Positions 24,056 to 63,757 of a stretch of DNA of 64,000 nucleotides are shown in pieces; positions within the stretch are counted from its first letter, which is position 1; every line of letters begins with the position of its first letter. Where the stretch lies: contig CM069140.1 of assembly GCA_035221665.1 (NCBI GenBank), forward strand, positions 14,632,001-14,696,000, in the 5' to 3' direction. The position numbers and the translations under genes are program-made. The stretch is from Okamejei kenojei. Its lineage: Eukaryota. The notes under the pieces were generated by a model. The model saw only the letters and a list, made by a program, of their open reading frames with translations. It was not told where the DNA came from and made no database searches.

Positions 24056-24182
24056 ATGCGAAATGAACATTGACGAATGTGCATCGAGCCCTTGTCTTAA
24101 CGGAGGCTTCTGCCAAAACCTGCCCCACCGGTTCCAGTGCATTTGTGACATGAACTTCGCCGGCGACCACTGCGAGTTTGAT
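24056..24182 (+). CDS. CRB1: CRB1 exon 11 (last EGF repeat), spliced form
   Basis: ttgcag|A to GAT|gtaagc; 127 nt, phase 2/0. [42 protein letters not shown]. Confidence 0.93.
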
Positions 24183-24293
24183 GTAAGCGACCTCTCCTTT
24201 TTCATCTCTTTATTACTCTGGCAGAACCTGTTCCAACTTCTTTCCTACCTCGTTCTGCGAATGGATGACGAGCCAGCAGTGGAATGGGCTTGA
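24183..24293 (+). CDS. CRB1: Exon 11 read-through extension: CRB1-B-type transmembrane segment and short tail
   Basis: In-frame continuation [36 protein letters not shown], closely resembling the mammalian CRB1-B C-terminus as recalled. AATAAA at 24541. Confidence 0.85.
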
Positions 24294-24949
24294 AAGTTAT
24301 GGATAACCCAACTAGTTTACCCAAAGAGAATGGCACATCGTACGTGCCTGAATAGATCTCCATGCTGTTGGGAAACAGCTTATTAACAGAAACTTGTATC
24401 AACCCTGGGAAAACTCAGACACACTAAATATGTAACATTTAACATAGATTACCTCCGGGAAATTATTTTCTGTAAACATTTAACATTAGATGTTTCAAAA
24501 TTGATTACAACACACAGCTAAAACCTCTCAATAATTTGGGAATAAAAACATGCAGAGATCATCTCATTATAATTTGTTTGCAGTGGAGATTATGTGAGGC
24601 CATCCATTTTAGCTAGTTTAAAATTATTTCTTTATGCAGAGTAAATGCACTGGGATAATCAACCATCTCAACTCACTTTGGTGTTTAGCTGTTTTAATTA
24701 TCAGCTTCTGCAATTTTCCTTCAGATGAAACTGATAAATAATTAAAGATAATAAACATTGCAACGCTACCATTTTGTCCTATCAATGTATCCTACTGTTT
24801 TCCTCATTTTCACATTCATTTTTCTTTGCAGACATTTACATTACTCACTTTAGTCACTCGAAACAGCAGCGGATTTATTTCTCCTGACTTCCCAGTTGGG
24901 TTTATTAGTTACCATCCTATACTTATGGTCTTAAATTTTGGAAATACCT

Positions 24950-26150
24950 TCATCCTACTTTTAAAGAAAGGCAGGAGAGAGAAACAGGGAATTATAGACC
25001 AGTTAGCCCGACATCTCGATAGCAGTAACAGGATCGGTCCAAGTCAGCATGGATTTACGAAGGGGAAATCTTGCTTGACAAATCTTCTGGAATTTTTTGA
25101 GGGTTTAACTTGGAAAATGGACAAGGGAGAGCCACTAGATGTAGTGCACCTGGTCTTTCAGAAAGGTCCCACATAGGAGATTAGTGGGAAAAATTAGGGC
25201 ACATGGTATTGGGGGTAGAATGCTGACATGGATAGAAAATTGGTTGGCAGACAGGAATCAGAGAGTGGGGATTAACGGGATCCTTTCAGAATGGCAGGCA
25301 TTGAATAGTGGGGTACCGCAAGGCTCGGTGCCGGGACCGAAGCTATTTACAATATACATCAATGGTTAGATGAAGGGATTCAAAGTAACATTAGCAAATT
25401 TGCAGCTGACACAAAGCTGGGTGCCAGTTTGAACTGTGAGGAGGATGCTACGAGAATGCAGGGTGACTTCGACAGATTGGGTGAGTGGGCAGATGCATGG
25501 CAGATGCAGTTTAATGTGGATAAATGTGAGGTTATCCACTTTGGTAGCAAAAACAGGAAGGCAGATTATTATCTAAATGGTGTCAAGTTGGAAAAAGGGA
25601 AAGTACAACGGGATCTGGGGGTCCTTGTTCATCCGTCAATAAAAGTAAGCATGCAGGTACAGCAGGCAGTGAAGAAAGCGAATGGCATGTTGGCATTCAT
25701 GACAAGAGGAGTTGAGTATAGGAGCAAAGAGGTCCTTCTGCAGTTGTATAGGGCCCTAGTGAAACGACACCTGGAGTATCGTGTGCAGTTTTGGTCCCCT
25801 AATTTGAGGAAGGACATTCTTGCTATTGAGGAAGTGCAGCGTAGGTTCAAAAGGTATGGCGGGACTGTCATATGGTGAGAGAATGGAGCGGCTGGGCTTG
25901 TATACTCTGGAGTTTAGAAGGATGAGAGGGCATCTTATTGAAACATATAAGATTATTAAGGGTTTGGACACGCTAGAGGCAGGAAACATGTTCCCGATAT
26001 TGGGGGAGTCCAGAGCCAGGGGCCACAGTTTAAGAATAAGGGGTAAGCCATTTAGAACGGTGACGAGGAAACACATTTTCACACAGGGAGTTGTGAGTGT
26101 GTGGAATTCTCTGCCTCAGAGGGCGGTGGAGGCCGGTTCTTTGGCTACAT
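24950..26150 (+). mobile_element. CR1-clade LINE, degenerate RT region
   Basis: QHGFTKGKSCLTNLLEFFE, SGVPQGSV, WQMQFNVDKCEVIHFG and LYRALVKRHLEY motifs, with frameshifts and stops. Confidence 0.92.
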
Positions 26151-29100
26151 TTGGCTTCACCTTCAGTGCTGTAGCATAAACCGGTCTGTGATGATAAAGT
26201 GAAGGTCCCATCAAAATAAAGAGAAATGTACCATTAAATGGAACGGTTGCTGAGCAACCACAATATTCTCTACTTCCTTAAAACAAATAGTAAAGCATTA
26301 GATCTAAGCACAAAGTGCTGGAAATTCGCCTGCCCTTTCTCTTCACCTGCTGCATGAACCCCTGAGTTCCTCCAACACTGTGTGTTTTGCCCAAGATTCC
26401 AGCATGTGCATTTCCTTGCATCTCCAACCAATAGATCCAGGTTAGACACAAAATACTGGAGTAACTCAACGGTTCAGGCAGCATCTCTGGAGAGAAGGAA
26501 TGGGTGACGTTTCGGGTCGAGACCCTTCTTCTGAAACGTCACCCATTCCTTCTATTCAGAGATGCTGCCTGTCCCGCTCAGTTACTCCAGCATTTTGTGT
26601 CTGTCTTTGGTGTAAACCAGTACCTGCAGTTCCTTCCTGCACAACAGAGCCAGGAGTTCTGCAACTAATGACATTTCTCTTGGCTCAGATCACCCCATCA
26701 CTGATGCTTTTTTAAGCCTTTAAAACATGCTTTGCCTTAGTGATGGGGTGATAATTGGGCCCCGTTTACTTAAACATGTAATTCAGCAACAAATCACTCC
26801 CTTGAGTGGTTCATTCTCTCTGAGAAGACAGACGGATTTCCCCAAGGTTCAACTGAATCACACATTGTAAGCAGTGCTAAACATTTTATGGTTTTTAGGG
26901 AAATCCACAAGAGGTTACATTTGATTCTGAAACATGCTGAGTAAATTCTGCTTCAAAATGTATTTACACTAAGTTTAGCATTAATGCAGAGAGGCCTCAC
27001 TCTCACATGATGTTAAGCTTGTGATGTTTGGACGGGTACATGAGTAGGAAAGGATTAGAGGCATATGGGCCAAATGCAGGCAGGTAGGACAATGGGGCAT
27101 TTTGGTTGGTAAGGTTAAATTGGGCCGAAGGGCCTGTATCCATGTTGTATGCCTTTATGTGCAAATTAAGAATACCAAACCAAATCCGGGATTAAATGCT
27201 GTGAGTGTAGGTGAAACTGCAGATGCTGGTTTACACCGAAGATGGACACAAAATGCTGGAGCAACTCAACAGATCAGGCAGCATCTCTGGAGAGAAGGAA
27301 TAAGTGACGTTTCAGGTCAGAACAGTTCTTCATCTGCTGTGAGATTCTTTTCTAACAAAATCCCACTCATAATTTAGTAATTATCAAATTCAGACTACGT
27401 TTACGCTATTACTCCACCAAAATACAAAGTGCTGGGGGAGGTCAGTGGGTCAGGCAGCATCCGTGGAGGGAATGGACTGACAGTGTTTTGGCTCGGACCC
27501 TATCTAAACATGTCTGGAGAAGGGTACCGACCCAAAATGGTGTCTGTCCATTCCCACCACAGATGCTGCAGCCTGACTCGCTGAGTTCCTCCAGCACTTT
27601 TGTGTTTTCCTCAAGATTCTGGCATCTGCAGTTCCTTTGTGTCTCATTAACTCAAACTTAAGTCAGTGGAAAAATTAGATGGTTGCTCAGAGAGTCTACT
27701 CCAAATACCCCACACAACATATTAATAAACATATTAATAAAGATTTACATTCCTTTGATGGTAGTTGCAGTAAGTATCTAATATATCTCTCTGGCCAAAA
27801 AAATCCCTGATCTCCAAGTCAGTATTTCGCTAGTGGGTTAAGACTGATCATTAAGAAATCGTGTTAATTAAGTGCTATTTCTTATTGCTGCTTTTAACTT
27901 GAACAAAATTGTAATAATCATAAGTAGAACAACTGAGCACATTTTTTATTTTCTAATTCTATAAGTATTTATATTGAAGGCTCTGGTTGTTTATTTTATA
28001 TATGCCCATTTATAAATATTGTCTATTTTTCCTGTTGTATGAAATTATATTTTTGACTGGAAGTGAGACGGCCTGAATAAAGCATGATGTTAGCGCATTG
28101 TCAGGTAGCCACATGGGGTTGGATCGGCAAGCTTGCTACTATTTATGATGTTATTATAAATAATGGAGTTGCCCTGGTCAGAGGAAGCACAGACCAAGTG
28201 GAAATATAAAATGCACACAAAATAAAGTCTGAACACTGGTTTATTGAAAGAGTGGAAAAAAATATAGCCAAGGCAATACCTGGGTTGTTTAAGTCAATGC
28301 CTTGCCTTTTCCTTGCTTGTACGTAGAATTCCTGTATCTTCACTGTCGTGGGACTATAAAATTCCTCAATATTCATAAAATTTATAAAATAGAATGTGTG
28401 TGAACTAGATTTCCGATATTTCTCATTTATATTCTTTATTACTAACTTCACCAACCATGACTGCCATTCTGTGTCTCATCTCTGTGTCTGCGTTCATTTG
28501 GTTAAACCATTCATCATTTGGCTTATGGGAATGGCCAGTATTGTTTTTGCCTCTCGCTGCATGTATGGGAATCCACACTTTTGGGGTGGGCGCCCAGTGT
28601 TATCATTTGAAACCTTAATAAATGCACCATCATTGTTGTATCTGTGTGTCTCCATTTCTTGCGCTCTGTTTAATGTTGAACACGTGCACTGATAAAATAC
28701 ACACTGGAGTGAAATACCCTCTGTGTATAGGTGCTTGTATAATTCGTTGCGATCATTCTGGTCGCGTTATTGTACAACGCTCCCGATCCGTATTTGCCTG
28801 CGTCTCCAAATTCTTCCTGGACTACACCACTTTATTTTGTATTAATAGTTCTAACTTAATTTCGGTTACAAAGAAAGGACAGACGAATAGAGTTCAATGC
28901 TTCCCTGTGTGGAATCACATCAGTACGGGCACAAATTGTCTTTGTATTCAATCTCTATTAAACCAGCAGTACTATTTGCTTTGTATGGTGAAAGGGATGT
29001 TGAATATCAGAATAGAAGTAGTTAAACAGACATGGAAACACATGGGTAAATTACTGGCCATGTATTCAGAGACCAACAATATTTTAGATAAAAAAACGAG

Positions 29101-32099
29101 GTGCGGGGGGAGCTCAGTGAGTTATCTAGTGAGAGAGTCTAGGACTAGAGGTCATAACCTCAGAATTAAAGGACGTTCCTTTAGGAAGAAGATGAGGAGG
29201 AATTTATTTCGTCAGAGGGCGGTGAATCTGTGGAATTCATTGCCACAGAAGGCTGTGGAGGCCAAGTCAATGGATATTTTTAAGACAGAGATAGATAGAT
29301 TCTTGATTAGTAGGGATGTCAGGGATTATGGGGAGAAGGCAAGAGAATAGGGTTAGGATGGAGAGATGGATCAATGGCGGAGTAGACTTGATGGGCCGAA
29401 TGGCCTAATTCTGCTCCTATCACAAGAACTTATCTGTCTATTCTGTCCACAGATACCACCAGACCAACTGAGATACTCCAGCGCTTTGTGTTTTGTTCAA
29501 GATTCCAGCATGTGCAGTTTCTTGTGCCTCTATTTAAAATAAATCTTCCATCAACAGCTAGGAAACGAAAACTACCACACTGTCATTGAAACCCAAAGTT
29601 AGACACAAAGTGCTGGAGTAGCTCAGAGGGTCAGGCAGCATCTTTGGAGAATATGGATAGGTGATTTTTCGGGTCATGACCCCCCCCCCTTCAGACGAGT
29701 AACAAGACAAGGGATCCGTAAATTCTACACAAAATGCCGGTGGGAATTTTTTTTAGAGATATGCACCTTTGCTTTGTTCAGTTGTGGAATGTTTCCTGAT
29801 ATTCAACAGATGGAGATACTTTTCATCAGTATCCACACAATCTGTGTGATCACCAACAACTGGTGCATGTGAATGCAGTCACCCCCTGCCTTAATGGCCT
29901 CGTGTGGAAATCATATCCGGGCGGTGTCTGTCTTAATGATTTCAGAGATAGGGATTATCCACTGTAAAGGTATCTGTGATCAAACTGCTATGCAATTTCA
30001 CACAGACCTCAGTGAAAGCAGGACACAACGTGCTTGAGTAACTCAGTGGGTCAGGCACCATCCCTGGAGAACATGGATAGGTGACGTTGTGGGTGGGGAC
30101 CCTTCTTCAGTCCTCCGCAAACTTCATGCCTTGAAACATATTTGAGAACCAGCCATATCAGGCACATCCCGGGCGGCACGGTGGCGCAGCGGAGAGTTGC
30201 TGCCTTCCAGCGTCGGGGACCCGGGTTCAGTCCCGACTATGGGTGCTGTCTGTACGACTTTTGGATATTTTCCTGTGGCCCCGTGGGATTTCTCCCGTGC
30301 TCCAGTTCGCTCTCCCAAACCACAGACGAGTAGGTTATTGTAGGTTCATTGGCCTCTGTAAATTGTCCCTAGTATGTAGGGAGTGGATGCGGCGATACAG
30401 TTTTGAACGCTATTTAGGTTTAGTTTATTGTCACAGGTACAGGATAAAGGGAATAATGTTAAGTGCAAGATAAAGCCCAGTAAAGTCAGATTAAAGATAG
30501 TCTGAGGGTCTCCAGAGAGGTAGATGGTAGGTCAGGACCACTCTCTAATAGAAACATAGAATCATAGAAAATAGGTGCAGGAGGAGGCCATTCGGCCCTT
30601 CGAGTCAGCTCCGCCATTCAATGTGATCATGCCTGCCTTCTCCCCATATCCCTTGATTCCACTAGCCCCTAGAGCTCTATCAACTCTCTTAAATCCATCC
30701 AGTGATTTGGCCTCCGCTGCCCTCTGTGGCAGGGAATTCCACAAATCCACAACCCTCTGGGTGAAAACGTTTTTTTTTCTCACCTCAGTCTTAAATGGCC
30801 TCCCCTTTATTCTAAGACTGTGGCCCCTGGTTCTGGACTCGCCCAACATTGGGAGCATTTTTTCCTGCATCTAGCTTGTCCAGTCCTTTTATAATTTTAT
30901 ATGTTTCTATAAGATCTCCCCTCATTCCTTCTAAACTCCAGTGAGTCTAGTTGCAGTTGCCTGATAACAGCTGGGAAGAAACCGTCCCTGAATCTGGAGG
31001 TGTGTGTTTTCCCACTTCTGTTCCGATGCATTGATGTTCATCCAGATGCCGTGGTGATCAGCGGTTGATGGAAGAGTGGATGGGAATGGTCAGGCAATGG
31101 GGAGTTAATGTTCCATTCACTGAAAACCGTCTTGGACCTTGCCACGAGCACGGGCAAACTCTGGTACAAATGTACACCTGTACTTAGATCACCATTATTG
31201 GCACTAAAAACAGATGTACCAGGACTGAATTTTACATTGTAGGGCAGCATAGTGGAGGAAAGGGCGGCGCCTCACAGCACCAGAGACCCGGGTTTGATCC
31301 TGACTACAGGTGCTGTCTGTATGGAATTTGTCTGTTCTCTCTGTGACCGCATAGGTTTTCACCGGGTGCCCTGGTTTCCACCCGCATTCCAAAGACGGAC
31401 AGGCTTGCAGGCTAATTGGCTTGGGAGAATTGTAAGTTGTCCCGAGTGTGTAGAATAGTGCTCGTGTGCAGGGATCGATCGCTGGTTGGCGCAGTCTCGG
31501 TGTGGCCGAAGGGTCTCTTTCCACGCTGTGTCTCTCAACTAAACTAAAATGATAGACACAAGATGCCAGAGTAACTCAGCGAGTCAGGCAGCAACTCTGG
31601 AGAAAAAGAATAGGTGTCGTTTGTGGTTGGAATTCCTCCTCGGACCGGAATTCTAAACTTCTGAATTTTACAATCTCCACGTATGCTCAGTAACACTACA
31701 TTGAAGCATTAACGTTCAATACCGTGCAATGGTGGAGAGAAGTTTATTCCTGGATTTCCACCTAGATTTTAATTTCATTTTCACGTGCTGGAGGAACTCA
31801 GCGGGTCAGGCAACATCTGTGGAGGGAATGGGCATGCGATGTTTCATTTCCGGACCATTCTTCAGATTGTAAAATGATTCGGACCCGAAACATCACTAGG
31901 CCATTCCCTCCGGCAATGCTGCCTGACCCTCAGAGTTCCTGCAGCCATCTTGTTCAAGACTGCACCATCGATTGTTCCTCGTGTCTCTTCAGAGATTCAG
32001 TCAGAGTAAGGCTTCACGAATCTTCGCTATGTGAGTGATCAACACTACACTGGTTTTACAAAGGTCAGGTCCTCATGGTTTGAAATATGACTCACTTCA

Positions 32100-32530
32100 C
32101 AGAGAGAGGTGTGTGTGTGTGCGTACACGTGTGTGTGTGTGTGTGAGGGAGAGAGAGGGAGGGAGAGTGTGGGTGTGTGGTGTGAGTGAGTGTGTGAGAA
32201 TGTGCAAGTGTACATGAGAGAGTGTGAGAGAGGGAATGCATGTGTGCATGAGAGTAAGTGTGAAAGAATGTGAGAGTGGGTGAATGTGTGAGAGGGAGTG
32301 AGTGAGTGTGTGTGTGTGTGGTGTGTGAGAGCGCACAGCATTTGTGTGTCTATGAGTGTGGATAAGTGTGCGTGAGAGTGCAAGTGTGTAAAAGAGTGTA
32401 AATGGGGTGAGAATGTGTGAGAGTGCGTGTGTAAAAGAGTGTGCATGTGTGTGTGTGTGAGAGAGAGTGGGTCTGTGTGTGGCGTGTGAGAGAGAGTGCA
32501 TGTAAGTGTGTTTGTGCGCATGTTTGTGAG
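32100..32530. repeat. Degenerate (GT/GA)n microsatellite tract
   Basis: Long run of gtgt/gaga dinucleotides, producing spurious His/Thr-rich ORFs. Confidence 0.9.
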
Positions 32531-34744: not shown

Positions 34745-35136
34745 CCTTGCAGTCGGTGACGCCACAGGTTTCAGCCCTGCCTCTGCTCAGGTGTGGCAGT
34801 AACTTGACACCTGAGCCAGGTATCGGGTGGGTTCTGACAGAAATCGCTGGTTTTCAAAACTCACAGACAGAAACTAGCAGTCAAACCGGAAGCAGGGCTC
34901 AACGCAGAGAGGAGGAATATGTTCAAAAGAAGATCCAATGTCTTATGATTCTGAATAATCAACCACGCAGCTAAAGAACCAGGCATTAGTACGCTGCTGG
35001 CGTGCAGGTAACTCGTCACGCTGAACTGCAAGGTTCCTGTTGAAGGGTTTTAAGTTCCCCAGGACCGATCCCTTCAGAAATATTGCTCTAAACTTTGTGG
35101 ACTGGATTTTGAGCTGTGTAGCTATGGACTCGTAGG
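34745..35136 (+). promoter_or_regulatory. Putative promoter/5'UTR of the nested CRB3-like unit
   Basis: Repeat-free, locally GC/CpG-richer segment upstream of ATG 35137. TGACGC 34757; GRHL-like ACAGGTTT 34764; E/Z-boxes CAGGTG 34788, CACCTG 34808, CAGGTA 34817 and 35005; GGGTGGG 34825; ETS ACCGGAAG 34885. Confidence 0.45.
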
Positions 35137-35218
35137 ATGGAAGAACGATTTCTCCCTGGTTGTGGTTGGCTACTGGCCACATTACTTCTGCTGAAGGAAG
35201 GAGTTTTGCTCACACAAG
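35137..35218 (+). CDS. Nested CRB3-like unit, coding exon 1 (signal peptide)
   Basis: aggATGG strong Kozak. MEERFLPGCGWLLATLLLLKEGVLLTQ plus G|gtaatg; 82 nt, phase 1. Hydrophobic core typical of a signal peptide. Confidence 0.72.
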
Positions 35219-38959: not shown

Positions 38960-40330
38960 AGACAATAGGTGCAGGAGTAGTCCATTCTGCCCTTCGAACC
39001 AGCACCACCATTCACTGTGCTCATGGCTGATCATCCACATTCAGTACCCTGTTCCTGCTTTCTCCCCATATCCCTTGACTCCGCTATCTTTAAGAGCTAT
39101 CTAACTCTCTCTTGAAAGCATCCAGAGAATTGGCCACCACTGCCTTCTGAGGCAGAGAATGCCACAGATTCACAACTCTCTGGGTGAAAACGTTTTTCCT
39201 CATCTCCGTTCTAAACGGCCTACCCCTTATTCTTAAACTGTGGCCCCTGGTTCTGGACTCCCCCAACATCGGGAACATGTTTCCTGCCTCCAAGTGTGTC
39301 CAATCCCTTAATAATCTTATATGTTTCAATAAGATCCCCTCTCATCCTTCTAAACTCCAGAGTATACAAGCCCAGCAGCTCCATTCTATCAAAATATTAC
39401 AGTCCCGCCATCCCGGGAATTAACCTTGTGAGCCTACGCTGCACTCCCTCAATAGCAAGAATGTTCTTCCTCAAATTTGGAGACCAAAACTGCACACAAT
39501 ACTCCAGGTGTGGTCTCACTAGGGCCCAGTACAACTGCAGAAGGACCTCTTTGCTCCTATACTCCACTCCTCTTGTTATGAAGGCCAACATGCCATTAGC
39601 TTTCTTCACTGCCTGCTGTACCTGCATGCTTACTTTCAGTGACTGATGAACAAGGACCCCCAGAAGTTGTTGTAGTACATCCCCTTTTCCCAACTAATCT
39701 GCCTTCCTGTTTTTGCTACCAAAGTGGATAACCTCACATTTAACCACATTAAACTGCATCTGCCCACTCACCCAGCTTTGTGTCATCTGCAAATTTGCTA
39801 ATGTTACTTTGAATCCCTTCAGCTAAATCATTAATGTATATTGTAAATAGCAGCGGTCCCAGCACCGAGCCTTACGGTACCCCACCAGTCACTGCCTGCC
39901 ATTCTGAAAGGGACCCGTTAATCCCTACTCTTTGCTTCCTGTCTGCCAACCAATTTTCCATCCATGTCAGTACCCTACCCCCAATACCATGTGCTCTAAT
40001 TTTGCCCATTAATCTCCTATGTAGTACCTTATCAAATGCTTTCTGAAAGTCCAGGTACACTGAATCCACTGGCTCTCCCTTGTCCATTTTCCTAGTTACA
40101 TCCTTAAAAAAATCCAGAAGATTAGTCAAGGATGATTTCCCCTTCGTAAATCCATGCTGACTCGGACCGATCCTGTTTACTGCTATCCAAATGTGCCGCT
40201 ATTTCATCTTTTATAATTGACTCCAGCATCTTCCCCATCACTGGTGTCAGGCTAACTGGTCCATAACTCCCTGTTTTCTCTCTCCCACCTTTCTTAAAAG
40301 AGGGATAACATTAGCTACCCTGTAATCCAC
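38960..40330 (-). mobile_element. CR1-clade LINE, 5'-truncated and degenerate
   Basis: YLDFQKAFDKV, LVRPHLEYCVQFWSP and ESRTRGHSLRIRG, with 3' tail near 38960. Confidence 0.92.
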
Positions 40331-41317
40331 AGGATTGATACATTCCCCAAAATCTTCACAATGTTTTTATCCAGTTTGTCTTAGATTTAATAGTTTGCTC
40401 TCTAATTCATAGCCAAATACACGACTTAAAATAATGTCTTGGTGGCCAAGAATATCTGGAGATCTATAACATAAAGCAGGACTGGAGTGGGCAAATGGGA
40501 CCAGCATAGTTGGGGCATCTTGGTCGATATGGTCAAATTGGGCCGAAGGGCCTGTTGCCGTGTTGTATGCTCTATGACTGTGAGTACTACATTAGAGGGT
40601 AATACCAAGGAATTGGTTGAGGCAGGTACTACAAGGGCATCTAAAAGACCCTTGGGATATGGGCCAAACACGGGCAAATGGGACTGGCTTAGATCGGGCA
40701 TGTTGGTCAACGTGGAGGGATTGGGCTGAAGGGCCTGCTTCAGCCAAGCTAAACTAATCTCTACATGTTCAAGATCCATATTCCCCCATTCCCCGTATAT
40801 CCCATGTGAATATCTAAAAGCCTCAAATGCCACTTTTGTATCTGTTCCCACCATTAGGCTCCACATTTTCAGGGGGACTTCCCGGGGGGGGGGTGGATTT
40901 TTAATCCAGATTACAATGGTGGGTGGGAGGATCCACCAGTTGCCAGAAAATTGCTGGTGAGCCTGCACTTCCATCAGGTCTCTTCAGCAACTCCAGCGTT
41001 TCAGAGAAAACTATCCAAGGAGCAGCCGCACCTGTCTGGACAACAGTGTCAACAGTGTCAGTGGTTCTGCCAACAACCTCTGGTCCCCGCACTTCCACTT
41101 CCAGAACACGTTCCTGCAACAATGGCAACATTCACCAAACAAGTTCTCCACTCCATTATTCATCCACTCGTCAAAGAAAGCCTGCAATATAAGTACATTC
41201 TGCACAACGAGTTCGTCAGGGACAGTTTGGTGATTGCCGTTTAAAGCTCGGTAGCTTGTAGATGTAAACCTTCAACGTTCCAGTACTGTCTTCATGTTAG
41301 TGTTGGTTCCTTTACAG

Positions 41318-41370
41318 CAGTGAATGTAACAGACTCTACACCTACAACGAATGCTGCTAACACATCAACA
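41318..41370 (+). CDS. Nested CRB3-like unit, coding exon 2 (short Ser/Thr-rich glycosylated stalk)
   Basis: ttcctttacag|CA to ACA|gtaagt (consensus donor); 53 nt, phase 1/0. (A)VNVTDSTPTTNAANTST with NVT and NTS sequons. Bridges the flanking exons in frame. Confidence 0.75.
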
Positions 41371-44334: not shown

Positions 44335-44559
44335 GCAACCCCCCCGCCAGCTAGCAGAGTTAACATTGCAGCCATAGTGGCTCCCTGTGTCATTGGTGGG
44401 GTGATCGTTTTAGCTATCATTCTGACTGTTCTAATCTTGAAGCTACGCGAGAAGCGTCAGACTGAAGGGAACTACAGCCCAAGCAACCAGGAGCAGACTG
44501 GATCCCGGATGGAGATGAACAACGCCCTAAAACTCCCACCCGAGGAACGTCTGATCTGA
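44335..44559 (+). CDS. CRB3/CRB2-type transmembrane and cytoplasmic terminal exon (FERM-binding motif, ERLI PDZ motif)
   Basis: Branch point ctctaat then gttttcacag|GCA, phase 0. [74 protein letters not shown]. Confidence 0.9.
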
Positions 44560-44746
44560 TGTGTTCAACTTAGGGGTCAATGTTGGAAGAAGTCAACAGA
44601 CCCCAGGTATTCCTTGTGCTACCCAACAATTTGGGATTAAAGAAAAACTGTGAAGCTCTGTGCATTTCTTTAAACCAAGGCAACTTCCAAAACGAACCCC
44701 CAACGCGGGTCGTCCATAAATGTGTAACTGTTTTGACTCTTAGCAG

Positions 44747-44962
44747 GATGTTGGTGCTTGGAGCTCAGAGATTGTGCCCTACACAGGGCTGGTCGTCGCC
44801 ATGCTGTCGCTGACCCTGTTTCTCGTCCTCGCCGCCACCGTCCTCGCCCTGAGCAGGAGAGCAACGCACGGAGCCTACAGTCCGAGCCGGCAGGAGAAAG
44901 AAGGGTCACGTGCGGAGATGTGGAACTTGGTGCCACCACCACAGGTGGAAAGGCTTATCTGA
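44747..44962 (+). CDS. CRB1: CRB1 canonical terminal exon 12 (TM and cytoplasmic tail, ERLI)
   Basis: tagcag|GAT, phase 0 (alternative AG at 44743). DVGAWSSEIVPYTGLVVAMLSLTLFLVLAATVLALSRRATHGAYSPSRQEKEGSRAEMWNLVPPPQVERLI*. The SRQEKEGSRxEMWNL string is diagnostic of CRB1. Confidence 0.93.
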   Translation, partial: DVGAWSSEIVPYTGLVVAMLSLTLFLVLAATVLALSRRATHGAYSPSRQEKEGSRAEMWNLVPPPQVERLI

Positions 44963-46724
44963 GGGGGCCTTGGCCAACACGTCCCACGGTTTGTTGGCAC
45001 ATCACTGCCCATGCCTAGGCTGAGCACCATCCCTTGCTGCGTCCCACAAATACTGCTTTAACAGGTATTGAACACTTGCCTTGCATTCACTCAAGTGGGT
45101 CACACCAGCCAAGCCCACCTTTATTACTAATATCCAACAGCCCCTTAGATGGTGCTGGTGAACTGTCTTCTTAAACCCTGAGCAGTCAACACAGTGATAA
45201 TACCCTCACAGTGCAGTTAAATGGGAGGTTAAATGGGGCAAAACTGTGGCGTGGAGTTCGAGCTGCTGCCTCACAATGCCAGAGCCCTGGGTTTGATCTT
45301 AACTCTGGGATGCTGCCTGTATGGAGTTTGTACATTCTCCCTGTGACCTTATGGGTTTCCTCCAATGCTCTGGTTTCCTCCCACATCTCAAAGCCATACA
45401 GGTTTGCAAGTTAATTGGCTACTGTTCCAGCTTCGATCAAATTTAATCTGTCTATTGCCCAAATACTTAAGAACACTCAGAGCTATAGTAACTCAGCAGG
45501 TCAGGCAGCATCTCTAGAGAACATGGATCAGCGATTTTTCAGGCCGGGACCCTTCTTAGCTATGCTTGAAGAAATGTCCTGACCCAAAATGTTATCTATG
45601 TGTGTGTTTTGTTGTAAACCAGCATCTGCAAATCCTTGTGTCTACTTAAAAATACTATTAATAATTGCTCTTCCTTTCCACAAAGCTGTCGACAGAAATT
45701 AGATCACAATGCTAATATGTAAGTTATGTGAATACAGAATGTACACAAATACAGGAATAAGCTATGAAATTGGACGGTTCAGCCAAGGCAAAATGTTTGC
45801 GTACCGATAACTCGTAACTTAGGGGTGCCTCTAAGTTATGAAAGAGCAAATCGCAAACTGCTGGAGGAACTTGCTGGGTCTGGCAACATCTGTCAATGGA
45901 ATGAACGGGCGACATTTCAGGTCGGGACCCTTCCTCTAACCAATGAAGTTGGATTCCAACCCAAAAAGTCGTCAGTCTATTCCCTGCACAGATTACCTCC
46001 ACAGATACTGCCTGACCTGCTGAGTTCCTCCAGCACATTGCATTTTTCTCAAGATTCCAGCATCTGCAGTACCTTGTGGCTCAGCTGTTAAGAAGGAATA
46101 AGATGGTCAGAAATGGAGCTTCCAATTCCTCCATGTGGAGTAGAATTGAATCTAAGGCATTTAAGCTGGGGAAGATGCTAAAACTGTTAGCATTTCTGTG
46201 GTTACAGAAACTTGGAGGTTTTGTGCTACAGCAGAGATTTTCAGTGTAACTTGCCCAAGACCAGTCAAACCAGAGGCAAACTATGACAGAATTATGTTAT
46301 GGTTAGTGCAATTTGTTCCTGTGATTTTTTAAATTGTTTTAAAATTAAGATGGAAGATGGGAGATTATAGTTCTGCCAACAAGCATTAACTTGAGTGTAA
46401 ACATGAGAAAGTTAAAATCTCAATCCTGTTACTATACAATACAATACCGTTTATTGTCATTTGAACCTCATTGAGGTTCAAACGAAATTTGGTTTCTGCA
46501 GTCGTACAAACAAGAAAAGAACCAAGACACAACGCAATTGACACAAACATCCACCACAGTGAATCTCCTCCTCACTGTATTTCAGCTGGACAGGGTGGTC
46601 ACTTTTCTGTGTTTTTTGTCATTGTTCCAGGTTCAGATTCTTTCCAGAGTCTCTCTCAGTGCCCAGTCACAGTTCTGGGTGCTTTCAACACCAGCAGCAG
46701 ACACCTCAGCCCTCTGGAAGAGAG

Positions 46725-46834: not shown

Positions 46835-46867
<33 letters not shown>

Positions 46868-50879: not shown

Positions 50880-51400
50880 AGACACAAAATGCTGGAGTAA
50901 CTGCGGGACAGGCAGCATCTCTGGAGGGAAGGAATGGGGGACGTTTCGGGTCAAGACCCTTCTTTAGACTGAGAGTCAGGGAAGATGGGAGATTAGAGAT
51001 ATGGAAGGGTAAGGTGTGAAAATGACCGATCAAAGCAGATGTTGATCCAATAAAATGTAGAACGGTTCATTGTTGGCTGAGGTGAAGGTGACAACGAGGC
51101 TTACAAACAGTAAAATTAATCAGGAGGACAATGAAGCTAGTTGGAGAATTAGCATGGGGGTGGGGGGTGGGGAGTGAAAACCAAGGGTTACTTGAAGATA
51201 GAGAAATCAAGATCATACCACTGGGGTGTAAGCTGCCCAACCAAAATATGAGGTGCTGTTCCTCCAATTTGCGCTGGGCCTCACTCTGGCAGTGGAGGAG
51301 GCCCAGGACAGAAAGGCCAGTATATGGGAGGGGGAGTTAAAGTGTTTAGCAACCAGGAGATCATGTAAGTCTGGACATACTGAGTGGAGGTGTTCAGCAA
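50880..51400 (-). mobile_element. Penelope-like element 3' fragment
   Basis: RFAEHLHSV...VAKHFNSPSH and EEQHLIFWLGSLHPSGM (frameshifted) plus terminal repeat. Confidence 0.65.
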
Positions 51401-56569: not shown

Positions 56570-57140
56570 AAACAAAAATAAGGACGTAATGTTGAGGCTC
56601 TGTAAGGCACTGGTAAGGCCACATTTGGAATATTGTGAGCAATTTTGGGCACCATATCTGAGGAAGGATGCACTGGCTCTGGAGAGGGTCCAGTGGAGGT
56701 TCACAAGAATGATCCCAGGAATTAGTAGGTTAACCTATGTTGAGCGTTTGTTGGCAGTGCGTCTGTTCTCACTGGAGTTTAGAAGATTGAGGGGGGGCCT
56801 AATTGAAAGACAGAATAGTTAACGCTTAGATACAGTGGATGCGGAGAGGATGTTTCCACTAATGGGAGAGTGTAGGACTAGAATTCAGAATTAAAGGATG
56901 TTCTTTTAGGTTAAGAAGGTTCTTGAATCTGTAGAATTCTTTGCCACAGAAGGCTATGGAGGCCAAGTCAGTGAATATTTTTAAGGTAGAGATAGATAGA
57001 TTCTTGAACAGTACAGGTGTCAGGGGTTATGGGGAAAAGACAGGAGAATGGGGTTAGGAGGGAGAGATAGATCAGCTATGATTGAATGGTGGAGTAGACT
57101 TGATGGACCAAATGGCTTAATTCTACTCCTATTCCTTCTG
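56570..57140 (+). mobile_element. CR1 LINE 3' fragment (one of many)
   Basis: LVRPHLEYCEQFWAPYLRKD. Similar CR1 3' ends at about 2810-3200(+), 22060-22500(+), 29125-29420(+), 30545-30945(-), 43040-43780(+), 48070-48410(-), 48945-49320(-) and 63150-63450(-). Confidence 0.8.
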
Positions 57141-57179
57141 ACCTGATGAGAGAAGCAGGTTGAAGAAAACATCGCAAAC

Positions 57180-60100
57180 AGCGTAAAATTGAAACTTTAT
57201 TGTTTGGCGACGGCAAAGCACAGCTCTGCAAAGTCTCAAGAATAACGTCATTCAGCCAACTCTGCATCATTCCCCTTAACATTATACAGCAGCTTGGACA
57301 AACTTTGAACAAACAGATCACCCACAGACAACCAGCTGCCACAGCAGTATCACTGTGCAGACTGGCTCTGATGATTTGGTTCCTGGGAGACATTTACACA
57401 CCTTGTCTGAATCGGAAGTTGAATGCATATAAATATCCAGATAAATTAAGGTAATTATTAATCTCTTGGAACATCAGGACCATTTTGAACATGACCTTGG
57501 ACCACATGGATGGAAAACGTAATTCTCTTGCAGTTTTATATTTGAATCACATCATTGACACCGACAGTAAGAGAATGTGAAAAACAGCTTCCACGTTGTT
57601 ACTCTGGATCAGAATGGGTAGCCTGTACAAATATGCTCCTTAAGGAACAACAATGAGGAAAAAATGGCACTAACAGCAGTTCAACAGATGATTAGCCCAT
57701 AACAATGATTCAAAGGTTTACGAGCCACATGGCTGGATTTTGAACATGAGACTGCTGTACAACCTCGCAGAGTTGTTTGATCAGGCACAGTCTCAGCTGA
57801 ACTGCACAATTAAATAGCACGACTGTGCAAAAGAGCCCTAGCAACAAGCCCGGCGGTATTTTACAATGCGTTAATAGAACCAAAACATTTTAGTTCACAG
57901 TTGGATCGTTTACAGTGATTCACGAACAACGATGTTTTTAGCTCAATGAGCAATCAGATAAACAATTGTATAATTTACACATGCAACCAATGTACGTAAT
58001 GAAAGTCACGTGCACATTCGGGATTGGACAGGCATGACCATGGAGAAGGTTTACTTTAAAAGATGAACAGATAAACACGACAAATGAGTCACAACCTGTT
58101 CTAGCAGTTGAACAAAATATTGCATATTAAAAAAGTTCGCTCCAATTTATGCATAGGGTGTGAACTCTACAGTTCGGAGAATGTGACGGCTTATTGATCT
58201 GATAAGATATTCAAGACTTTGGTAGGAAATGAAAAATAGCAATTAGAGAAAGATGATTTAACAGTTATTCACAAACAACCTATTCCGTGACTCGTAGTTA
58301 ACAGTGGAGCAAGTTTCAAAGTCAACTCACTATGCATGCAAATTAGCTACGTCTCTACATTAAATTTTATTAAAACATTGTTGTGCAAAAATTGAACTTA
58401 CGAGCCACATCTGACACACAAACCATTGGTAAATAAGGATTCATATTGCACAAAAAATTGTTATAAAAAAGAGCATGCCGTCCGGAGTGAGAAATAGGTG
58501 GCATTTAAATTACTTTCAATATATAAACTCAAGATAACAGTGGCATTTTCGATTACAAGAGCATTTAAAACAGAAACTCATATTGATTTGAGCTTTGGGG
58601 AAGTCTGAGGTATATCAAATAGGATTATCCCATTGGCTTTCTGCTTTGATATACAGCCTATGTGAAGAGGTGGTGGAAGTGACGACATACTGCCGCCATA
58701 TATTACACTTTAATTTCGTTCCAGTTCCCACAATAAAATTCAGTACCATCATTCAAATGTTCCATTAAGGCACCTATTGTAGCCTATGCTGCAGTGATGT
58801 ATCAAGTATTTATATTTTTAAAAAGTTATATCTGTATCTCTGCCAAATTTACAATTGTTGTCCTTTAGCAAGATCCAGCTAAAAGGAAAAAAAGATACAG
58901 AATTGAGCAAATAGAACCATAATTTACCTCTTGACCCCAGTAACAAAGTGGGCAAGGCAACATTTTATTTATGGCAATAAACTAACCAAATGTTCTTTGA
59001 AGATTTAAAAGTATTAAATATTAGTTATTAGATTTAATATGCTGCCATCTGTCCTAATACTTATCTTGCCAGTTTGTAACCCATGGAAGTACCATCGTGA
59101 ACTGGATAATAATAGGGCCCCCTTTTCCCTTACAGATGTAGGTTGCTGTTCAAACAACCCTGCTCGCTCACTTCGCATTCTAAAAACACAACAATATTTA
59201 ACTATTAACTCCTAAAGCATTTGTGCACAATTGTTCAATATACCAAAGAAGTACTTTACACCCAGACAATGTAAAGCAAATTGGTAGCACTCAAAAATCC
59301 TTATTGAAGTGATTCTTACCACAGACCTGAAACTCTTAAACGAGGTCCCGTGATTACCAATTAACTTTCCTGAAAAAAATTATTTTCTTGTGAAAATATC
59401 GCTCAGAGGGTCAAATGAGCCAGCATTCATGATGCTGGGGAGGATGAAAACTATTCAACTTATTTCAGGAAGGCGTGGACTTGAAACTCATCGGTAGAAA
59501 GCAAACCGATTACTAATGTTATAAAATGTTATATAAATCTCCACAGGAGTATTTTTTTTTAAATCTTCGCCCTTTACGTACCACAGTTTCCATTGTCATT
59601 CCCAGTAATTATTGCTTAATGGATTGACTTCAAGCCTATTCAGGGTTACACCATTTAAGTACCATATGGCTTGAGGAAGTTGCTACATGAAGACTTACGA
59701 TCGAGGATAACTGTAACATTTAAGGCAGAACCTTGGACCATTTGGCTTTAATTTACTGCATATTTCATTCATTGGCAAGGTAAAGCATAGATAATGGCAG
59801 AACACAGATGAAATATAATGGACAGTTTGAGCAGCGCACCTGACTTAAAGAGATTTATTAAAATGAATAGAATGGACTGTGGAGGGTTTAGGTGTAAGCA
59901 GTAGAAACAAGAAACTACAGATGTTGGTTTGCAAAACAAAGACACAAAGTGCTGGGGTAACTGCAAGTCAGGCAGCATCTCTGGAGAACTTGATTAGGTG
60001 ACGTTTTGGGTAAATGTGACAATTGAATAATCTTGACTACCCGTGGCTGTAGCTTATTGGACAATGTATTCTAAAACTCAGTGTGAAGAAGGATCTCGAC

Positions 60101-61705
60101 CCAAAACGTCACCTATCCACGTTCTTCAGAGATGCTGCCTGACCCACCGAGTTACTCCAGCACTTTGTTTTTCTTTGTTCGATGTAAGCAGTGCATTTTG
60201 TGTCAACAAGAAGTTGCCAGTACACATGTGAGATCAGCCATGATCGAATGGCAGAGTAGACTACATGCGCTGAATGGCTTAATTTTGCTCCTATGTGTTA
60301 GGATCTTATTAGTAAATATGTGTCATGTGGCCAGAAGATGAAAGAATGAAAGTGTGACTTTTATAAAGACGTGCTGCACTGGTGTGTACCAACACTAAGA
60401 AGCTCTGGGTGTAAGGAATTGCAGTGAACAGTGCTCATTATTCCCAACTCAATTGCTGATAAGCTTTGACAAAGCTACTGCGAATGCTCTTCCATTCCCT
60501 GTTGTACAAGGATTTATCGATATTTTATTTAGCCCATGTAAAAATTCGAAGTTCACCATAACCCTCTGAAGCTTTCTTATCCTTGTATCCGCCTCTACCA
60601 CCTCCTCTGGAAGCTCATTGCTCATACCCACCACCCTCTGTGTGACAAAGATGATGCCCAGAACCACAAGGGAGATGGTAGAGGCAGGGACAATGGCAAC
60701 ATTTAAAAGACATCTGGATATGGGATACATGGAGAGGAAAGGTACAAGGAGATGTGGGCCAACGCAGGTAAATGGGATTAGCGTAGATAGCCGTCTTGAG
60801 CGGCATGGCAGCGAAGGGCTGAAGGGTCTGTTTTGGTGCTGTGTAACCGTGAATCGATGACATTTGAAAGACCAGCATGATTTGATTGGAATAACATGAA
60901 GATTTATCACTAGCTCTGAATGTAGATCACTGATTCCTACGGCCGAGGAGAAAGACACGTTTGCATTTGTTGTTGACGTTTACCATTTTCACTGCCCTCA
61001 GTGACATGGCAACTCCTGTGTACAGGAATACTGGATTGCTGATTGACAGATGTACACACACTCCCCGAATTTTCTAAGGGTTATGTCCCCTGGACAATTG
61101 TGTAAGTCAGATGTTACACAAGTCGGAAACGGAAGTGCTACTACACACACGTAAGTTTATGAAACGATGCAGAGACCATTGGGGAATTCCAACGCCAAGA
61201 CTACTGGGGGGGGGGGGGAGCTCCGACACGGAGACCACGGAAGGAGTTCCGACGTGGAGACCACTGGGGAGCTCCAACGTGGAGACCACAAGAAGAGCTG
61301 ACTGGCTTACAGAAATGGCTGCATGCGAAGTCAGTAGTGCACTATGACCAAGACAAGCAACTCAGAAATAACAAATTGCTTATGCAAGTGCGAGTTTACG
61401 TAAATCACCGATTATATAAGCAGGGAAGTGAATGTACTGAGAAATGATGTGTCGTCAAGTGTTTAGCCCAAGTCTATAAATCAGGTGAACTTAACAGTCA
61501 TTTGAGAAATACATATTAAAAATTCAAACCTACAAGAAAATCTGTATTTCACTTTGCATAATTCAGTAAAGCAGTGGATTTTTAACATTCTGCACTTAAA
61601 AAGTTCAATGACTTTGTCCCTTACTGCAGTCCAATACACACTCTTTCATTTTCTTAAATAGCTACTCTATTCTAGCCCGGTTTAAACCATGGTTCCGCCT
61701 CCACA
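57180..61705 (-). other. DENND1B: Probable long 3'UTR of DENND1B
   Basis: Mostly repeat-poor, AT-rich sequence downstream of the stop. Minus-strand AATAAA at 57196-57201 followed by a GT-rich element. Further AATAAA near 58366 and 58964. Confidence 0.5.
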
Positions 61706-62212
61706 CTAGCTGTGGGTAGTGGAAGCCCCGACACTGGAAATGGTGTGGCCAGTTGTCATTCGGGAACACAAGCAGTCAATCTCTTGGAGAAGGTCTGTCT
61801 CACTGGCGGGCTCCACCAGTTCAACCTCGCCATCGTCTTTCTCCCAAGGGACGAGAACAGATGGGTTTTTGGGAACATCCTGACACTGCTCTTGATCTTC
61901 ACTGGTTAGTGTTCGTGCTGGTAGCTGCCCGGTCGAACCTTCCTCCTCCGGGCTCATTTCTGCGTGCGAGGCGCGAGTTGGCGGCGAGTTTTTAAACGAC
62001 GAGTCACTGTTGGGTTTTGGGAAATCCATCAACTTTTCAATTAACTCGGGTGAGAGGGGGTTGTCGGAATAGTCAAAAAATGATTTCCGTGGCGATGGAG
62101 GAAGGGGCTTTCTGTGGATTGTGGTGTCGTCCTGCCCCAGGTGCCAGCTCAGATTGTTACACTGCCCGCTGAGCTCAGACAGGTTGCCCTCACTCGGTGT
62201 ATTGGACTTGTT
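61706..62212 (-). CDS. DENND1B: DENND1B last coding exon
   Basis: ttttcactttcccag|AAC, phase 0. NKSNTPSEGNL...WHLGQDDTTIHRKPLPPSPRK...LVPWEKD...DLLQEIDCLC ending at TAG 61706-61708. Confidence 0.9.
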   Translation of the reverse strand, partial: NKSNTPSEGNLSELSGQCNNLSWHLGQDDTTIHRKPLPPSPRKSFFDYSDNPLSPELIEKLMDFPKPNSDSSFKNSPPTRASHAEMSPEEEGSTGQLPARTLTSEDQEQCQDVPKNPSVLVPWEKDDGEVELVEPASETDLLQEIDCLCSRMTTGHTISSVGASTTHS

Positions 62213-63540
62213 CTGGGAAAGTGAAAATAAACACATCAGGTCCAAGAGAGACAAAACCCTTCATGCCAAAATAAAACAAATAGCTGTCCATAAGGTCATA
62301 AGGAATAGGAGTAGAATGAGGCCATTTGGCCCATCAAGTCTACGCCGCCATTCAATCATGGCTGATCTATCTCTCCCTCCTAGCCCCATTCTCCTGTCTT
62401 CTCCCCATAACTTCTGACACCCGTACTAATCAAGAATATATCTCTGTCGTAAATCTACCTCTCTCTGTCCAGTATGGAAACCCAACACCAATCTTTTACA
62501 CTAAATTACTTTGAATTTAGTTTATTGTCACGTGCACCAATGTACTGTGAAAAGTTTTTAGAAGAGATATGCAGAGCAAGGTTTTTTACACCGAAGATAG
62601 TCTGAAGCAGAGCTTCAACCCAAAACGTCACCCATTCCTGCTATCCAGAGATGCTGCCTGTCCCGTTGAGTTACTCTAGCATTTTGCGTCTATCTTTGGC
62701 ATAAACCAGCATCTGCAGTTCCTTCCTACTCAAGTATTTTTACACAGTGGGTGCCTGTAACGCGCTGCCAGGAGTGGTCGTGGAGCCAGATATGATGGAG
62801 ACTTAGGGATGCTATAATGTAACAACAAGGAACTGCAGATGTTGGTTTATACCAAAGATGGACACAAAGTGATGGAGTATCTCAGAGGGTCAGCCTGCAT
62901 CTCTGGAGAACATGGATAGGTGACGTTTCGGGCCAGGACCCTTCTTCAGACTTAGCGATGCTGCCTGCCCCGCTGAGTTACTCTGCCTTTGTGATATAGC
63001 ATCTGCAGTTCCTGGTTCCTACATTTTAACTTATTTTTTTTAACGCCTTTAGATATTTAACATTTCGAATATTATATTTTAAAGAAAGCAATGTTAATTT
63101 TTCCTCATATTTTCTTTCCGAATTAAATCTCAATAGCATTGTGTGAACATAAAACAGTACAGCACAGGATTAGGCAACTTTGGCCCACATTGTCTATGCC
63201 AAACATGATGCTAAGTTAACATTAAACTCCTCTGTCTGTACAGGATCCATATCCCTCCATTCCCTACATATCTAAATGTCTATCTAAAAGCCTCTTAAGC
63301 ACCACTATCGTACCTGCCTCCGCCACCACCCCAGGGAGCACGTTCCAGGCATCCACCAGCCTCAGCGTATATAAAACTTGCCGCGCACATCTCTTCAAAA
63401 TGTTGCCCCTTCGTGCCCCGTGCCCTCCAGTGCTTGACATTTCCACCCTGTACTGTTCTATGTTCAATGTTTCTGTGTGTACTCTTCTATGTTCTGTGTC
63501 GTACAGCTGTGGGCTTGCTATTGGAAGGCAATGCACTCAC

Positions 63541-63757
63541 CCTGGTTTTATAGCTGACATCGTCCATGGATTTGAAGAAGTCCAGACTCTTTGCCGCACA
63601 CAGCTTCCCTTGGTCTGAACTGTGGGTGCTGAGCGTGTCCAGGATCTCCCCCAACAGGTCCATCTGCCCCGGAGACTGTGACTCCAATTCCATCTGTTCA
63701 GACTCATCGCTGTCATCAATGTAAGCGTATGTATCCCCGCTGTCTTCAGACGACAAC
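63541..63757 (-). CDS. DENND1B: DENND1B penultimate coding exon
   Basis: Minus-strand cccaag|G to AGG|gtgagt, phase 2/0. LSSEDSGDTYAYIDDSDE...MDLLGEILDTLSTHSSDQGKLCAAKSLDFFKSMDDVSYKTR matches the DENND1B C-terminal region as recalled. CRB1-DENND1B synteny. Confidence 0.9.

What the first reader, a model, noticed from the sequence alone, without database searches (positions are those of the whole stretch)
24056..63757. Possible relic of the ancestral vertebrate crumbs locus, explaining the origin of CRB3
Known: CRB1-DENND1B, CRB2-DENND1A and CRB3-DENND1C are paralogous gene pairs, and CRB3 oddly lacks the large ectodomain. Seen: here the DENND1B-linked locus contains both the long gene and a CRB3-shaped internal unit. 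Its tail mixes CRB3 ([10 protein letters not shown]) and CRB2-like (YSPSxQE..G.R.EM..LK.PPEERLI) residues. Inference: the pre-duplication locus had an internal short-isoform promoter and two terminal exons. Mammalian CRB3 kept only the short unit, CRB2 kept the long form with the RQxEG tail, and CRB1 kept the RATxG tail.
Basis: inference. Interest (0 to 1): 0.8.

Follow-up and report, generated by a model that had tools for sequence, protein, structure and literature searches.

The report
Ray keeps ancestral Crumbs gene layout
In this ray the retinal gene CRB1 still contains a small CRB3-like gene and two alternative tail exons, a layout that appears to be the ancestral vertebrate one from which CRB1, CRB2 and CRB3 arose by genome duplication and loss of different parts.

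Summary
Confirmed. The last intron of a batoid CRB1 holds a three-exon CRB3-shaped unit (signal 35137-35218, stalk 41318/41321-41370, RQTEG 'Q' exon 44335-44559), 187 nt upstream of the RATxG 'A' exon (44747-44962). A contig of another species joins signal and Q exons. The protein is conserved across sharks, rays and chimaera; true CRB3 and CRB2 lie elsewhere. New support: CRB2 models of frog, newt, alligators, a turtle and a shark also carry both Q and A tails; this ray's CRB2 has a decayed A exon behind Q; trees group tails by type (A 99/96, Q 100/94) and reject grouping by locus (p<0.003). Tarpon and eel models place a Q-like unit before CRB1's A exon; hagfish has a short Q-type Crumbs. DENND1B and DENND1C are published 2R sisters, so CRB3 is best read as the unit's ohnolog stripped of its ectodomain exons. 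Not shown: a short unit before 1R (none at ray CRB2), long+Q splicing in this ray; the tail tree alone does not exclude a chondrichthyan copy (p=0.23). The models are already in public annotation, and this scan noted the unit in another ray (e1-7942591); seven literature searches found no paper on it.

The parts
1444..21879 (+). Upstream CRB1 ectodomain exons in the window (EGF and laminin-G; approximate tblastn bounds 1444-1587, 4359-4547, 7740-8705, 11459-12013, 13272-13442, 18220-19110, 21760-21879)
   Evidence: tblastn of basking-shark CRB1 P0088, 59-69% identity
24056..24182 (+). Last EGF exon of CRB1, phase-0 donor; can in principle splice to either terminal acceptor
   Evidence: shark models join the orthologous exon to Q or to A
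24183..24293 (+). Read-through into the intron giving the CRB1-B type transmembrane tail
   Evidence: ends [15 protein letters not shown]; mouse CRB1-B's last 16 residues given in PMC7335077; Mustelus model P0085 ends the same way
34788..35010 (+). Four CAGGTR/YACCTG E-boxes at the putative internal promoter and 5' UTR
   Evidence: 4 observed against 0.55 expected, 8 of 2000 dinucleotide shuffles reach 4; region and motif chosen after looking
34799..35218 (+). First exon of the short unit: 5' UTR from at least 34799, ATG 35137, 82 nt coding a signal-peptide-like stretch, phase-1 donor
   Evidence: contigs of X6 and X1 begin at 34799 and 34840; single copy in the genome; 14-20 of 27 residues shared with 7 orthologs
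41318..41370 (+). Stalk exon, 53 nt (or 50 nt from 41321), Ser/Thr-rich with two N-glycosylation sequons, phase 1 to 0
   Evidence: 82% to Narcine P0003; Mobula 118/117-aa isoforms reflect the tandem acceptor; 60-letter gap in X6 contig fits 50 nt
44335..44559 (+). Q terminal exon (74 aa): juxtamembrane linker, TM helix, RQTEG-NY FERM-binding motif, ERLI; its 3' UTR runs through the A exon to at least 45340
   Evidence: X4 contig 22 covers 44336-45340 unbroken
44747..44962 (+). A terminal exon (71 aa), canonical CRB1-A type tail, RATHG-AY ... VEMW-type, ERLI
   Evidence: CRB1-A clade 100/100
61706..62212 (-). Last coding exon of DENND1B (tail to tail with CRB1)
63541..63757 (-). Penultimate exon of DENND1B
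   Evidence: 59% match to the DENND1 gene beside CRB3 on C36

Best explanation
How it works now: the locus has at least two promoters and three 3' ends. The long CRB1 mRNA ends by read-through (B tail), or splices its last EGF exon to one of two phase-0 acceptors 412 nt apart in one terminal block: the proximal one gives the Q tail and turns the A exon into 3' UTR, the distal one gives the A tail (anatomy shown; long+Q inferred from shark models). An internal promoter near 34.8 kb makes a three-exon mRNA for a 117-118 aa type I glycoprotein (signal, short glycosylated stalk, TM, FERM-binding motif, ERLI) (spliced form shown in a relative). It most likely acts as CRB3 does, recruiting PALS1/PATJ and Par6 at apical junctions of non-neural epithelia under ZEB/Snail-sensitive control (inferred). 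How it arose: in the vertebrate stem the single RATxG tail exon was duplicated in tandem into Q and A before 1R. The short unit was present in the CRB1/CRB3 progenitor before the jawed-vertebrate 2R. After 2R the microchromosomal copy lost ectodomain exons and A, becoming CRB3; the CRB1 copy kept everything in cartilaginous fishes and a diverged unit in some teleosts; CRB2 kept Q and A and has lost A repeatedly, here visibly in progress.
For: Three Crumbs loci only, each tail to tail with a DENND1 gene, on contigs of 84, 32 and 21 Mb; only two carry the laminin-G exon. Ray CRB3 has the same coding phases (70 nt phase 1; 53 nt to phase 0). 12 of 73 CRB2-cluster proteins end in an A tail, and six species have both Q and A models; the newt A-tailed ectodomain is 48-59% like CRB2s and 37-38% like shark CRB1. 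Ray CRB2 has a collinear, frameshifted, repeat-interrupted A exon 1.9-2.4 kb behind Q. Trees: A clade 99/96 and 97/93, Q clade 100/94 and 99/93; grouping by locus rejected (CRB1 Q+A p=0.00094; CRB2 Q+A p=0.0026; CD-only duplication p=0.006). Invertebrate tails are RATxG-like. Tarpon, eel and mudskipper models fuse a Q-like piece to a CRB1 A tail. Hagfish 'crumbs homolog 3' is short and Q-type (placing it outside all jawed tails is rejected, p=0.018). The nested Q exon is 74 aa like CRB2's (73), not CRB3's (64). DENND1B and DENND1C are quads C and D, DENND1A quad A, in PMC8040251 Table S1.
Against: The 65-column tail tree does not reject nested-Q plus chondrichthyan CRB3 as a clade (p=0.23), nor nested-Q plus CRB2-Q (p=0.27). 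Signal and stalk exons of the nested unit and of ray CRB3 are not significantly alike as DNA (28 and 38 of 500 shuffles reach the score); shared phases 1/0 are common after signal-peptide exons (general knowledge). Cyclostome stalks are Cys-rich and unlike jawed ones, and their position in the Q clade is unresolved (p=0.15-0.20). Short Crumbs also exist in C. elegans (PMC4359734) and Varroa, so short forms can arise more than once. The teleost evidence is three chimeric ab initio or projected models; distance and transcription untested. Long+Q has no read support here and no batoid model among those seen. No run laid is on record as RNA.
Confidence: 0.75

Rival explanations
1. Tandem Q and A tails are ancestral, but the short unit is not shared by descent: CRB3 became short on its own after 2R, and the CRB1 locus separately recruited an internal promoter with signal and stalk exons in front of its Q exon (or received them from the homeologous CRB3 locus by exchange) in the jawed-vertebrate stem.
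For: No significant DNA likeness of signal or stalk exons between the two ray units; short Crumbs arose in nematodes and mites; internal promoters recur in this family (CRB1-B; zebrafish crb2b-sf, PMC11129452).
Against: Same exon number and phases and the same 53-nt stalk length; the two loci are 2R sisters; a short Q-type form already exists in hagfish, before 2R, so one origin is simpler than two or three.
Confidence: 0.16
2. The unit is a copy of CRB3 transposed into CRB1's last intron in the chondrichthyan stem; long+Q models are incidental splicing.
For: Close annotated relatives are all chondrichthyan; AU test does not reject a clade with shark CRB3 (p=0.23); residues [10 protein letters not shown] and IAAIVAPC resemble CRB3.
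Against: It sits exactly where CRB2 has its Q exon, upstream of A on the same strand; its exon length follows CRB2, not CRB3; free trees place it outside CRB3 (89/90, 87/90); Q-like pieces precede CRB1's A tail in tarpon and eel models.
Confidence: 0.06
3. Recent batoid duplication or assembly artefact.
For: The CRB3 locus on C36 does show an 86%-identical repeat across an N gap.
Against: Ray nested-Q plus ray CRB3 rejected (p=0.00036); orthologs in chimaera and many sharks; first exon single-copy; spliced contig in another species.
Confidence: 0.01

Closest known systems
CRB3 (CRB3A, ERLI form) of vertebrates; in this genome G000:C36:4254784-4250098
   Same: Short ectodomain without EGF or laminin-G, three coding exons of phases 1/0, Q-type tail ending [10 protein letters not shown], tail-to-tail DENND1 neighbour
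   Different: Lies inside CRB1 next to DENND1B, shares its terminal exon and 3' end with the long gene, 57% identical to ray CRB3 over the tail exon, longer Q exon; an ohnolog, not the ortholog
CRB1-B isoform (PMC7335077; passages read)
   Same: Internal promoter with own signal exon and an alternative 3' end at CRB1; the B tail itself is present at 24183-24293
   Different: CRB1-B keeps much of the ectodomain and lacks the FERM and PDZ motifs; the unit here has no ectodomain domains and keeps both motifs
Zebrafish crb2b-sf (PMC11129452 review; passages read)
   Same: Second transcription start giving a shorter Crumbs
   Different: Lacks only the first 11 EGF repeats; start is not in the last intron
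Public RefSeq/Ensembl models 'protein crumbs homolog 3-like' and 'crumbs homolog 1 isoform X1' of chondrichthyans
   Same: The same proteins (84-91% over the Q exon)
   Different: Automatic names treat them as a CRB3-like gene or a CRB1 isoform, with no evolutionary reading
C. elegans CRB-3 (PMC4359734; passages read)
   Same: Short Crumbs with conserved tail
   Different: Lacks a signal peptide by that paper; separate gene; probably an independent origin (inferred)

Membership tests
CRB1 (host gene) | Ectodomain closer to CRB1 than CRB2 | tested here: met
   59-69% to shark CRB1 exons, while the C33 gene gives 32-38%
CRB1 (host gene) | CRB1-A type terminal exon | tested here: met
   within CRB1-A clade 100/100
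CRB1 (host gene) | CRB1-B read-through tail | tested here: met
CRB1 (host gene) | Tail-to-tail with DENND1B | tested here: inconclusive
   DENND1 gene present; one exon favours 1B, one equivocal
CRB3 (nested unit) | Short ectodomain, signal peptide, one TM helix | tested here: met
   read from sequence and orthologs; no signal-peptide predictor was run
CRB3 (nested unit) | GxY FERM-binding motif and C-terminal ERLI | tested here: met
CRB3 (nested unit) | Coding intron phases 1 and 0 as in CRB3 | tested here: met
   against ray CRB3; human exon boundaries were not available in any call
CRB3 (nested unit) | Orthology: stand-alone gene beside DENND1C, inside the CRB3 clade | tested here: not met
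   that position is held by the C36 gene; free trees put the unit outside CRB3, though one AU test is inconclusive
CRB3 (nested unit) | Apical localisation, PALS1/Par6 binding, epithelial expression | not testable with these tools
   needs experiments; E-box cluster is only a hint
CRB3 (nested unit) | Alternative CLPI-ending CRB3B form | not tested
   not looked for
Retroposed or transposed CRB3 copy | Intron loss or grouping with same-lineage CRB3 | tested here: not met
   introns of 6.1 and 3.0 kb present; recent copy rejected p=0.00036, chondrichthyan-stem copy not rejected p=0.23

The most novel reading that the evidence does not exclude
The single pre-1R vertebrate Crumbs gene already made all forms from one locus (long-A, long-Q, long-B and short-Q), so CRB1, CRB2 and CRB3 are an exon-level partition of one multi-isoform ancestor; the CRB1-nested unit survives in teleosts, where some genes named crb3b are this 2R ohnolog inside crb1 and not a teleost duplicate of crb3a, and most non-mammalian vertebrates switch Crumbs tails by acceptor choice.
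Probability: 0.3. Interest if true: 0.78.

Novelty: new variant of a known kind. Interest (0 to 1): 0.62.

Why it matters
It gives a concrete, testable origin for CRB3's missing ectodomain and for the different tails of CRB1 and CRB2: not divergence of one tail but differential loss from a locus that had two. It is a clear case of isoforms being split among ohnologs after whole-genome duplication, with one loss caught in progress. It predicts an unrecognised CRB1-type tail isoform of CRB2 in Xenopus and reptiles and a CRB3-like product of crb1 in fishes, which bears on how knockdowns, antibodies to Crumbs tails and redundancy between CRB1 and CRB2 in retinal disease models are read.

Tried and rejected
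No RNA holder listed for the tail region; 4 of 17 runs were laid, all contigs, repeats swamped the joint tables, the last EGF exon lay outside the stretch, so long+Q and long+A joins were not tested. Signal or stalk remnants in ray CRB2's 3.4-kb last intron: none (28, 207, 46 and 385 of 500 shuffles reach the scores; translations); after 500 My a lost unit would leave no trace, so this is weak. A-exon remnant within 5 kb behind ray CRB3: none (108 of 500). An EGF-like string upstream of CRB3 at C36:4266771-4266679 has no splice context or tblastn support and was dropped. A profile of nested N-termini scored above shuffles for most CRB3 N-termini, but shuffling does not control for any signal-then-stalk order, so it is not used. 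tblastx among DENND1 regions was swamped by repeats; no DENND1 tree was built, the 2R pairing rests on PMC8040251. ESM Atlas: P0420 gave CRB3-named clusters at 0.90; P0381's first hit is a 164-member 'Crumbs homolog 3b' cluster that may be its own; leads only. The tarpon Q piece is a long branch with no resolved place and was among 21 of 59 rows dropped for the AU tests. Cyclostome long-form tails and bony-vertebrate long CRB1+Q models were not among the 120 of 343 hits listed, a ranking dominated by EGF repeats, so absence is uninformative. Literature searches (listings only) showed no paper on a nested unit or on two Crumbs tail exons; subscription papers such as Omori and Malicki 2006 were not searchable, and supplements of the Crumbs papers were not opened. 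No structure or complex prediction was run.
Full report
OBSERVATION. The window is G000:C10:14632001-14696000 of a 2.76-Gb genome, a batoid by inference (its signal exon is closest to Narcine, Hypanus and Mobula, 18-20 of 27 residues, against 14-17 for sharks). A long Crumbs gene runs on the plus strand; its exons match basking-shark CRB1 at 59-69%. Its last EGF exon (24056-24182) reads through into a tail ending [11 protein letters not shown], which matches the CRB1-B C-terminus given in PMC7335077 (passages read). Twenty kilobases downstream lie two transmembrane-plus-tail exons with phase-0 acceptors 412 nt apart: Q (44335-44559, RQTEG) and A (44747-44962, RATHG). Between them and the EGF exon lie a signal exon (ATG 35137, 82 nt, phase 1) and a 53/50-nt stalk exon (41318/41321-41370). 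DENND1 ends tail to tail on the minus strand.

IS THE SHORT UNIT REAL? Of 69 hits among 70 short candidates, the best five are 118-121 aa chondrichthyan proteins at 84-91% (Mustelus, Carcharodon, Narcine, Mobula, Callorhinchus); a separate set of 'crb3a' proteins follows at 61-66%. Four of 17 public runs were laid; none is on record as RNA. One 897-nt contig of X6 lies on 34799-35216 and 44343-44757 with 60 letters between, the count expected for the 50-nt stalk; the letters themselves were not shown. In X1 the same depth (24.7) on both regions suggests one contig. An X4 contig covers 44336-45340 unbroken, so the Q transcript's 3' UTR contains the A exon: Q against A is an acceptor choice within one terminal block. 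The contigs start at 34799-34840 with no upstream exon attached, consistent with an internal promoter. Four E-boxes lie there (0.55 expected; 8 of 2000 shuffles; chosen post hoc); ZEB1 and Snail repress CRB3 per PMC4278252 (passages read).

IS Q ALSO A CRB1 EXON? Among 37 proteins printed from ten clusters, long CRB1 models end in Q in seven shark species and chimaera, in A in five shark species and chimaera, in B in Mustelus; basking shark, small-spotted catshark and both Chiloscyllium species have both Q and A. These are annotation models. No batoid long+Q model was seen and no read tested it.

THE OTHER LOCI. This genome has three Crumbs loci, each convergent with a DENND1 gene, and two laminin-G-bearing genes. 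CRB3 on C36 (21 Mb) has a 70-nt phase-1 signal exon, a 53-nt stalk and a phase-0 Q exon. CRB2 on C33 ends in Q; 1.9-2.4 kb further on the same strand three collinear pieces match shark CRB2-A, broken by frameshifts and a repeat with 85 hits in the DNA held (best E 2e-5). It also has a decayed B read-through (0 of 500 shuffles reach the score). No signal or stalk remnant was found in its last intron.

BOTH TAILS ARE OLD. Of 115 new long proteins (best 120 of 343 listed), 38 invertebrate or unnamed invertebrate-like ones have RAT/RAS/RRS motifs and none RQxEG; the Drosophila tail in PDB 4wsi is RATRG. One vertebrate entry, newt CRB2 isoform X2, has an A tail on a CRB2 ectodomain (48-59% to CRB2s, 37-38% to CRB1). 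In ten CRB2 clusters 12 of 73 proteins end in A; Xenopus tropicalis, Lissotriton, Heterodontus, both alligators and Dermochelys have both tails; none of nine stingray or devil-ray models has A. A 59-row, 65-column tree gives an A clade (99/96) and a Q clade (100/94) across loci (bootstrap not fully settled); a 38-row tree, 21 rows dropped, gives 97/93 and 99/93. AU tests reject Q+A of CRB1 (p=0.00094), Q+A of CRB2 (p=0.0026) and a duplication confined to the CRB1/CRB3 side (p=0.006). The tail duplication therefore preceded the CRB1/CRB2 split. CRB3 labels for bony fishes rest on names, not synteny.

AGE OF THE SHORT UNIT. An HMM search (471 hits, best 150 seen) and look-up of ten gave a tarpon model with signal-like start, stalk and diverged Q fused to a CRB1 A tail, an eel model with a Q remnant before A, a mudskipper 'crb3b' model joining a Q transmembrane exon to a CRB1 A end, and a 125-aa hagfish 'crumbs homolog 3' with an unnamed 131-aa sister. 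Cyclostome forms belong with Q (outside placement rejected, p=0.018) but their place within Q is open (p=0.15-0.20). Cyclostomes split after 1R and before the jawed 2R (PMC10972751, PMC8302630; passages read). PMC8040251 Table S1 row 508 puts DENND1A in quad A and DENND1B/DENND1C in quads C/D (supplement row read), so CRB1 and CRB3 are 2R sisters; in the larger tree nested Q is in an open fork, in the smaller it joins CRB3 and cyclostomes at 94/89. PMC8302630 describes biased loss on the microchromosomal 2R copy, which fits CRB3's 21-Mb contig against CRB1's 84 Mb. A recent batoid copy is rejected (p=0.00036); a chondrichthyan-stem copy is not (p=0.23), and is argued against by position, by exon length (74 aa against CRB2 73 and CRB3 64) and by the teleost models.

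MECHANISM. Shown: exon anatomy, spliced short form in a relative, shared terminal block, both tails at CRB2, decay of A at ray CRB2. Inferred: promoter position, epithelial expression, CRB3-like action through PALS1/PATJ and Par6 (motif roles from PMC4278252), long+Q use in this ray, single origin of the signal and stalk exons. Speculative (about 0.25): Q and A differ at the FERM-binding, aPKC-phosphorylated stretch (recalled, not from a call), so acceptor choice may tune FERM-protein binding.

NOVELTY. Seven searches (listings only) showed no paper on the nested unit, on two Crumbs tail exons, or on this origin of CRB3; PMC5676222 (passages read) treats zebrafish crb3a/b as a duplication of crb3. 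CRB1/CRB2 locus paralogy was noted long ago (recalled). PMC7269912 was searched for chromosome labels and added nothing. Verdict: a real, conserved feature; the two-tail ancestry is well supported, CRB3 as stripped ohnolog of the nested unit is likely (0.75), the pre-1R short unit is unproven (about 0.3).

Noticed in passing
G000:C33:10088126-10087575 (-), locus L020: Decayed CRB2 A-type terminal exon in three collinear pieces with frameshifts and a repeat insertion; intact in shark CRB2 models.
   Followed up: yes
G000:C33:10093587-10093480 (-), locus L021: Decayed counterpart of the CRB1-B read-through tail at CRB2, suggesting that the B tail also predates the CRB1/CRB2 split.
   Followed up: partly
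G000:C36:4251085-4263897, loci L011-L012: The CRB3 signal and upstream region occurs twice at about 86% identity across a 500-N gap; probably an assembly or haplotype duplicate.
   Followed up: partly
Protein P0381 (mudskipper): A model named crb3b ends in a CRB1-type A tail; teleost crb3b may in some species be the crb1-nested unit.
   Followed up: partly
Proteins P0440 and P0420: Hagfish short Crumbs and an unnamed sister have a small cysteine-rich stalk absent from jawed-vertebrate short forms.
   Followed up: no
Proteins P0426, P0435, P0411: Short Crumbs in Varroa, an unnamed short form with a RKTEG motif and an unnamed long form with RQTRG: Q-like changes and short forms also occur outside vertebrates.
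   Followed up: no
window 35125-35136 and 34938-34950: Upstream ATGs, including a three-codon uORF just before the start codon, in the short unit's 5' UTR.
   Followed up: no
window 24742-26176 (+) and 39093-40400 (-): Fragments of CR1/L2-like retrotransposon reverse transcriptase in the host intron (family name recalled, not tested).
   Followed up: no
Shark proteins P0146, P0174, P0293: Several shark CRB2 proteins are labelled 'crumbs homolog 1-like' in public annotation.
   Followed up: partly
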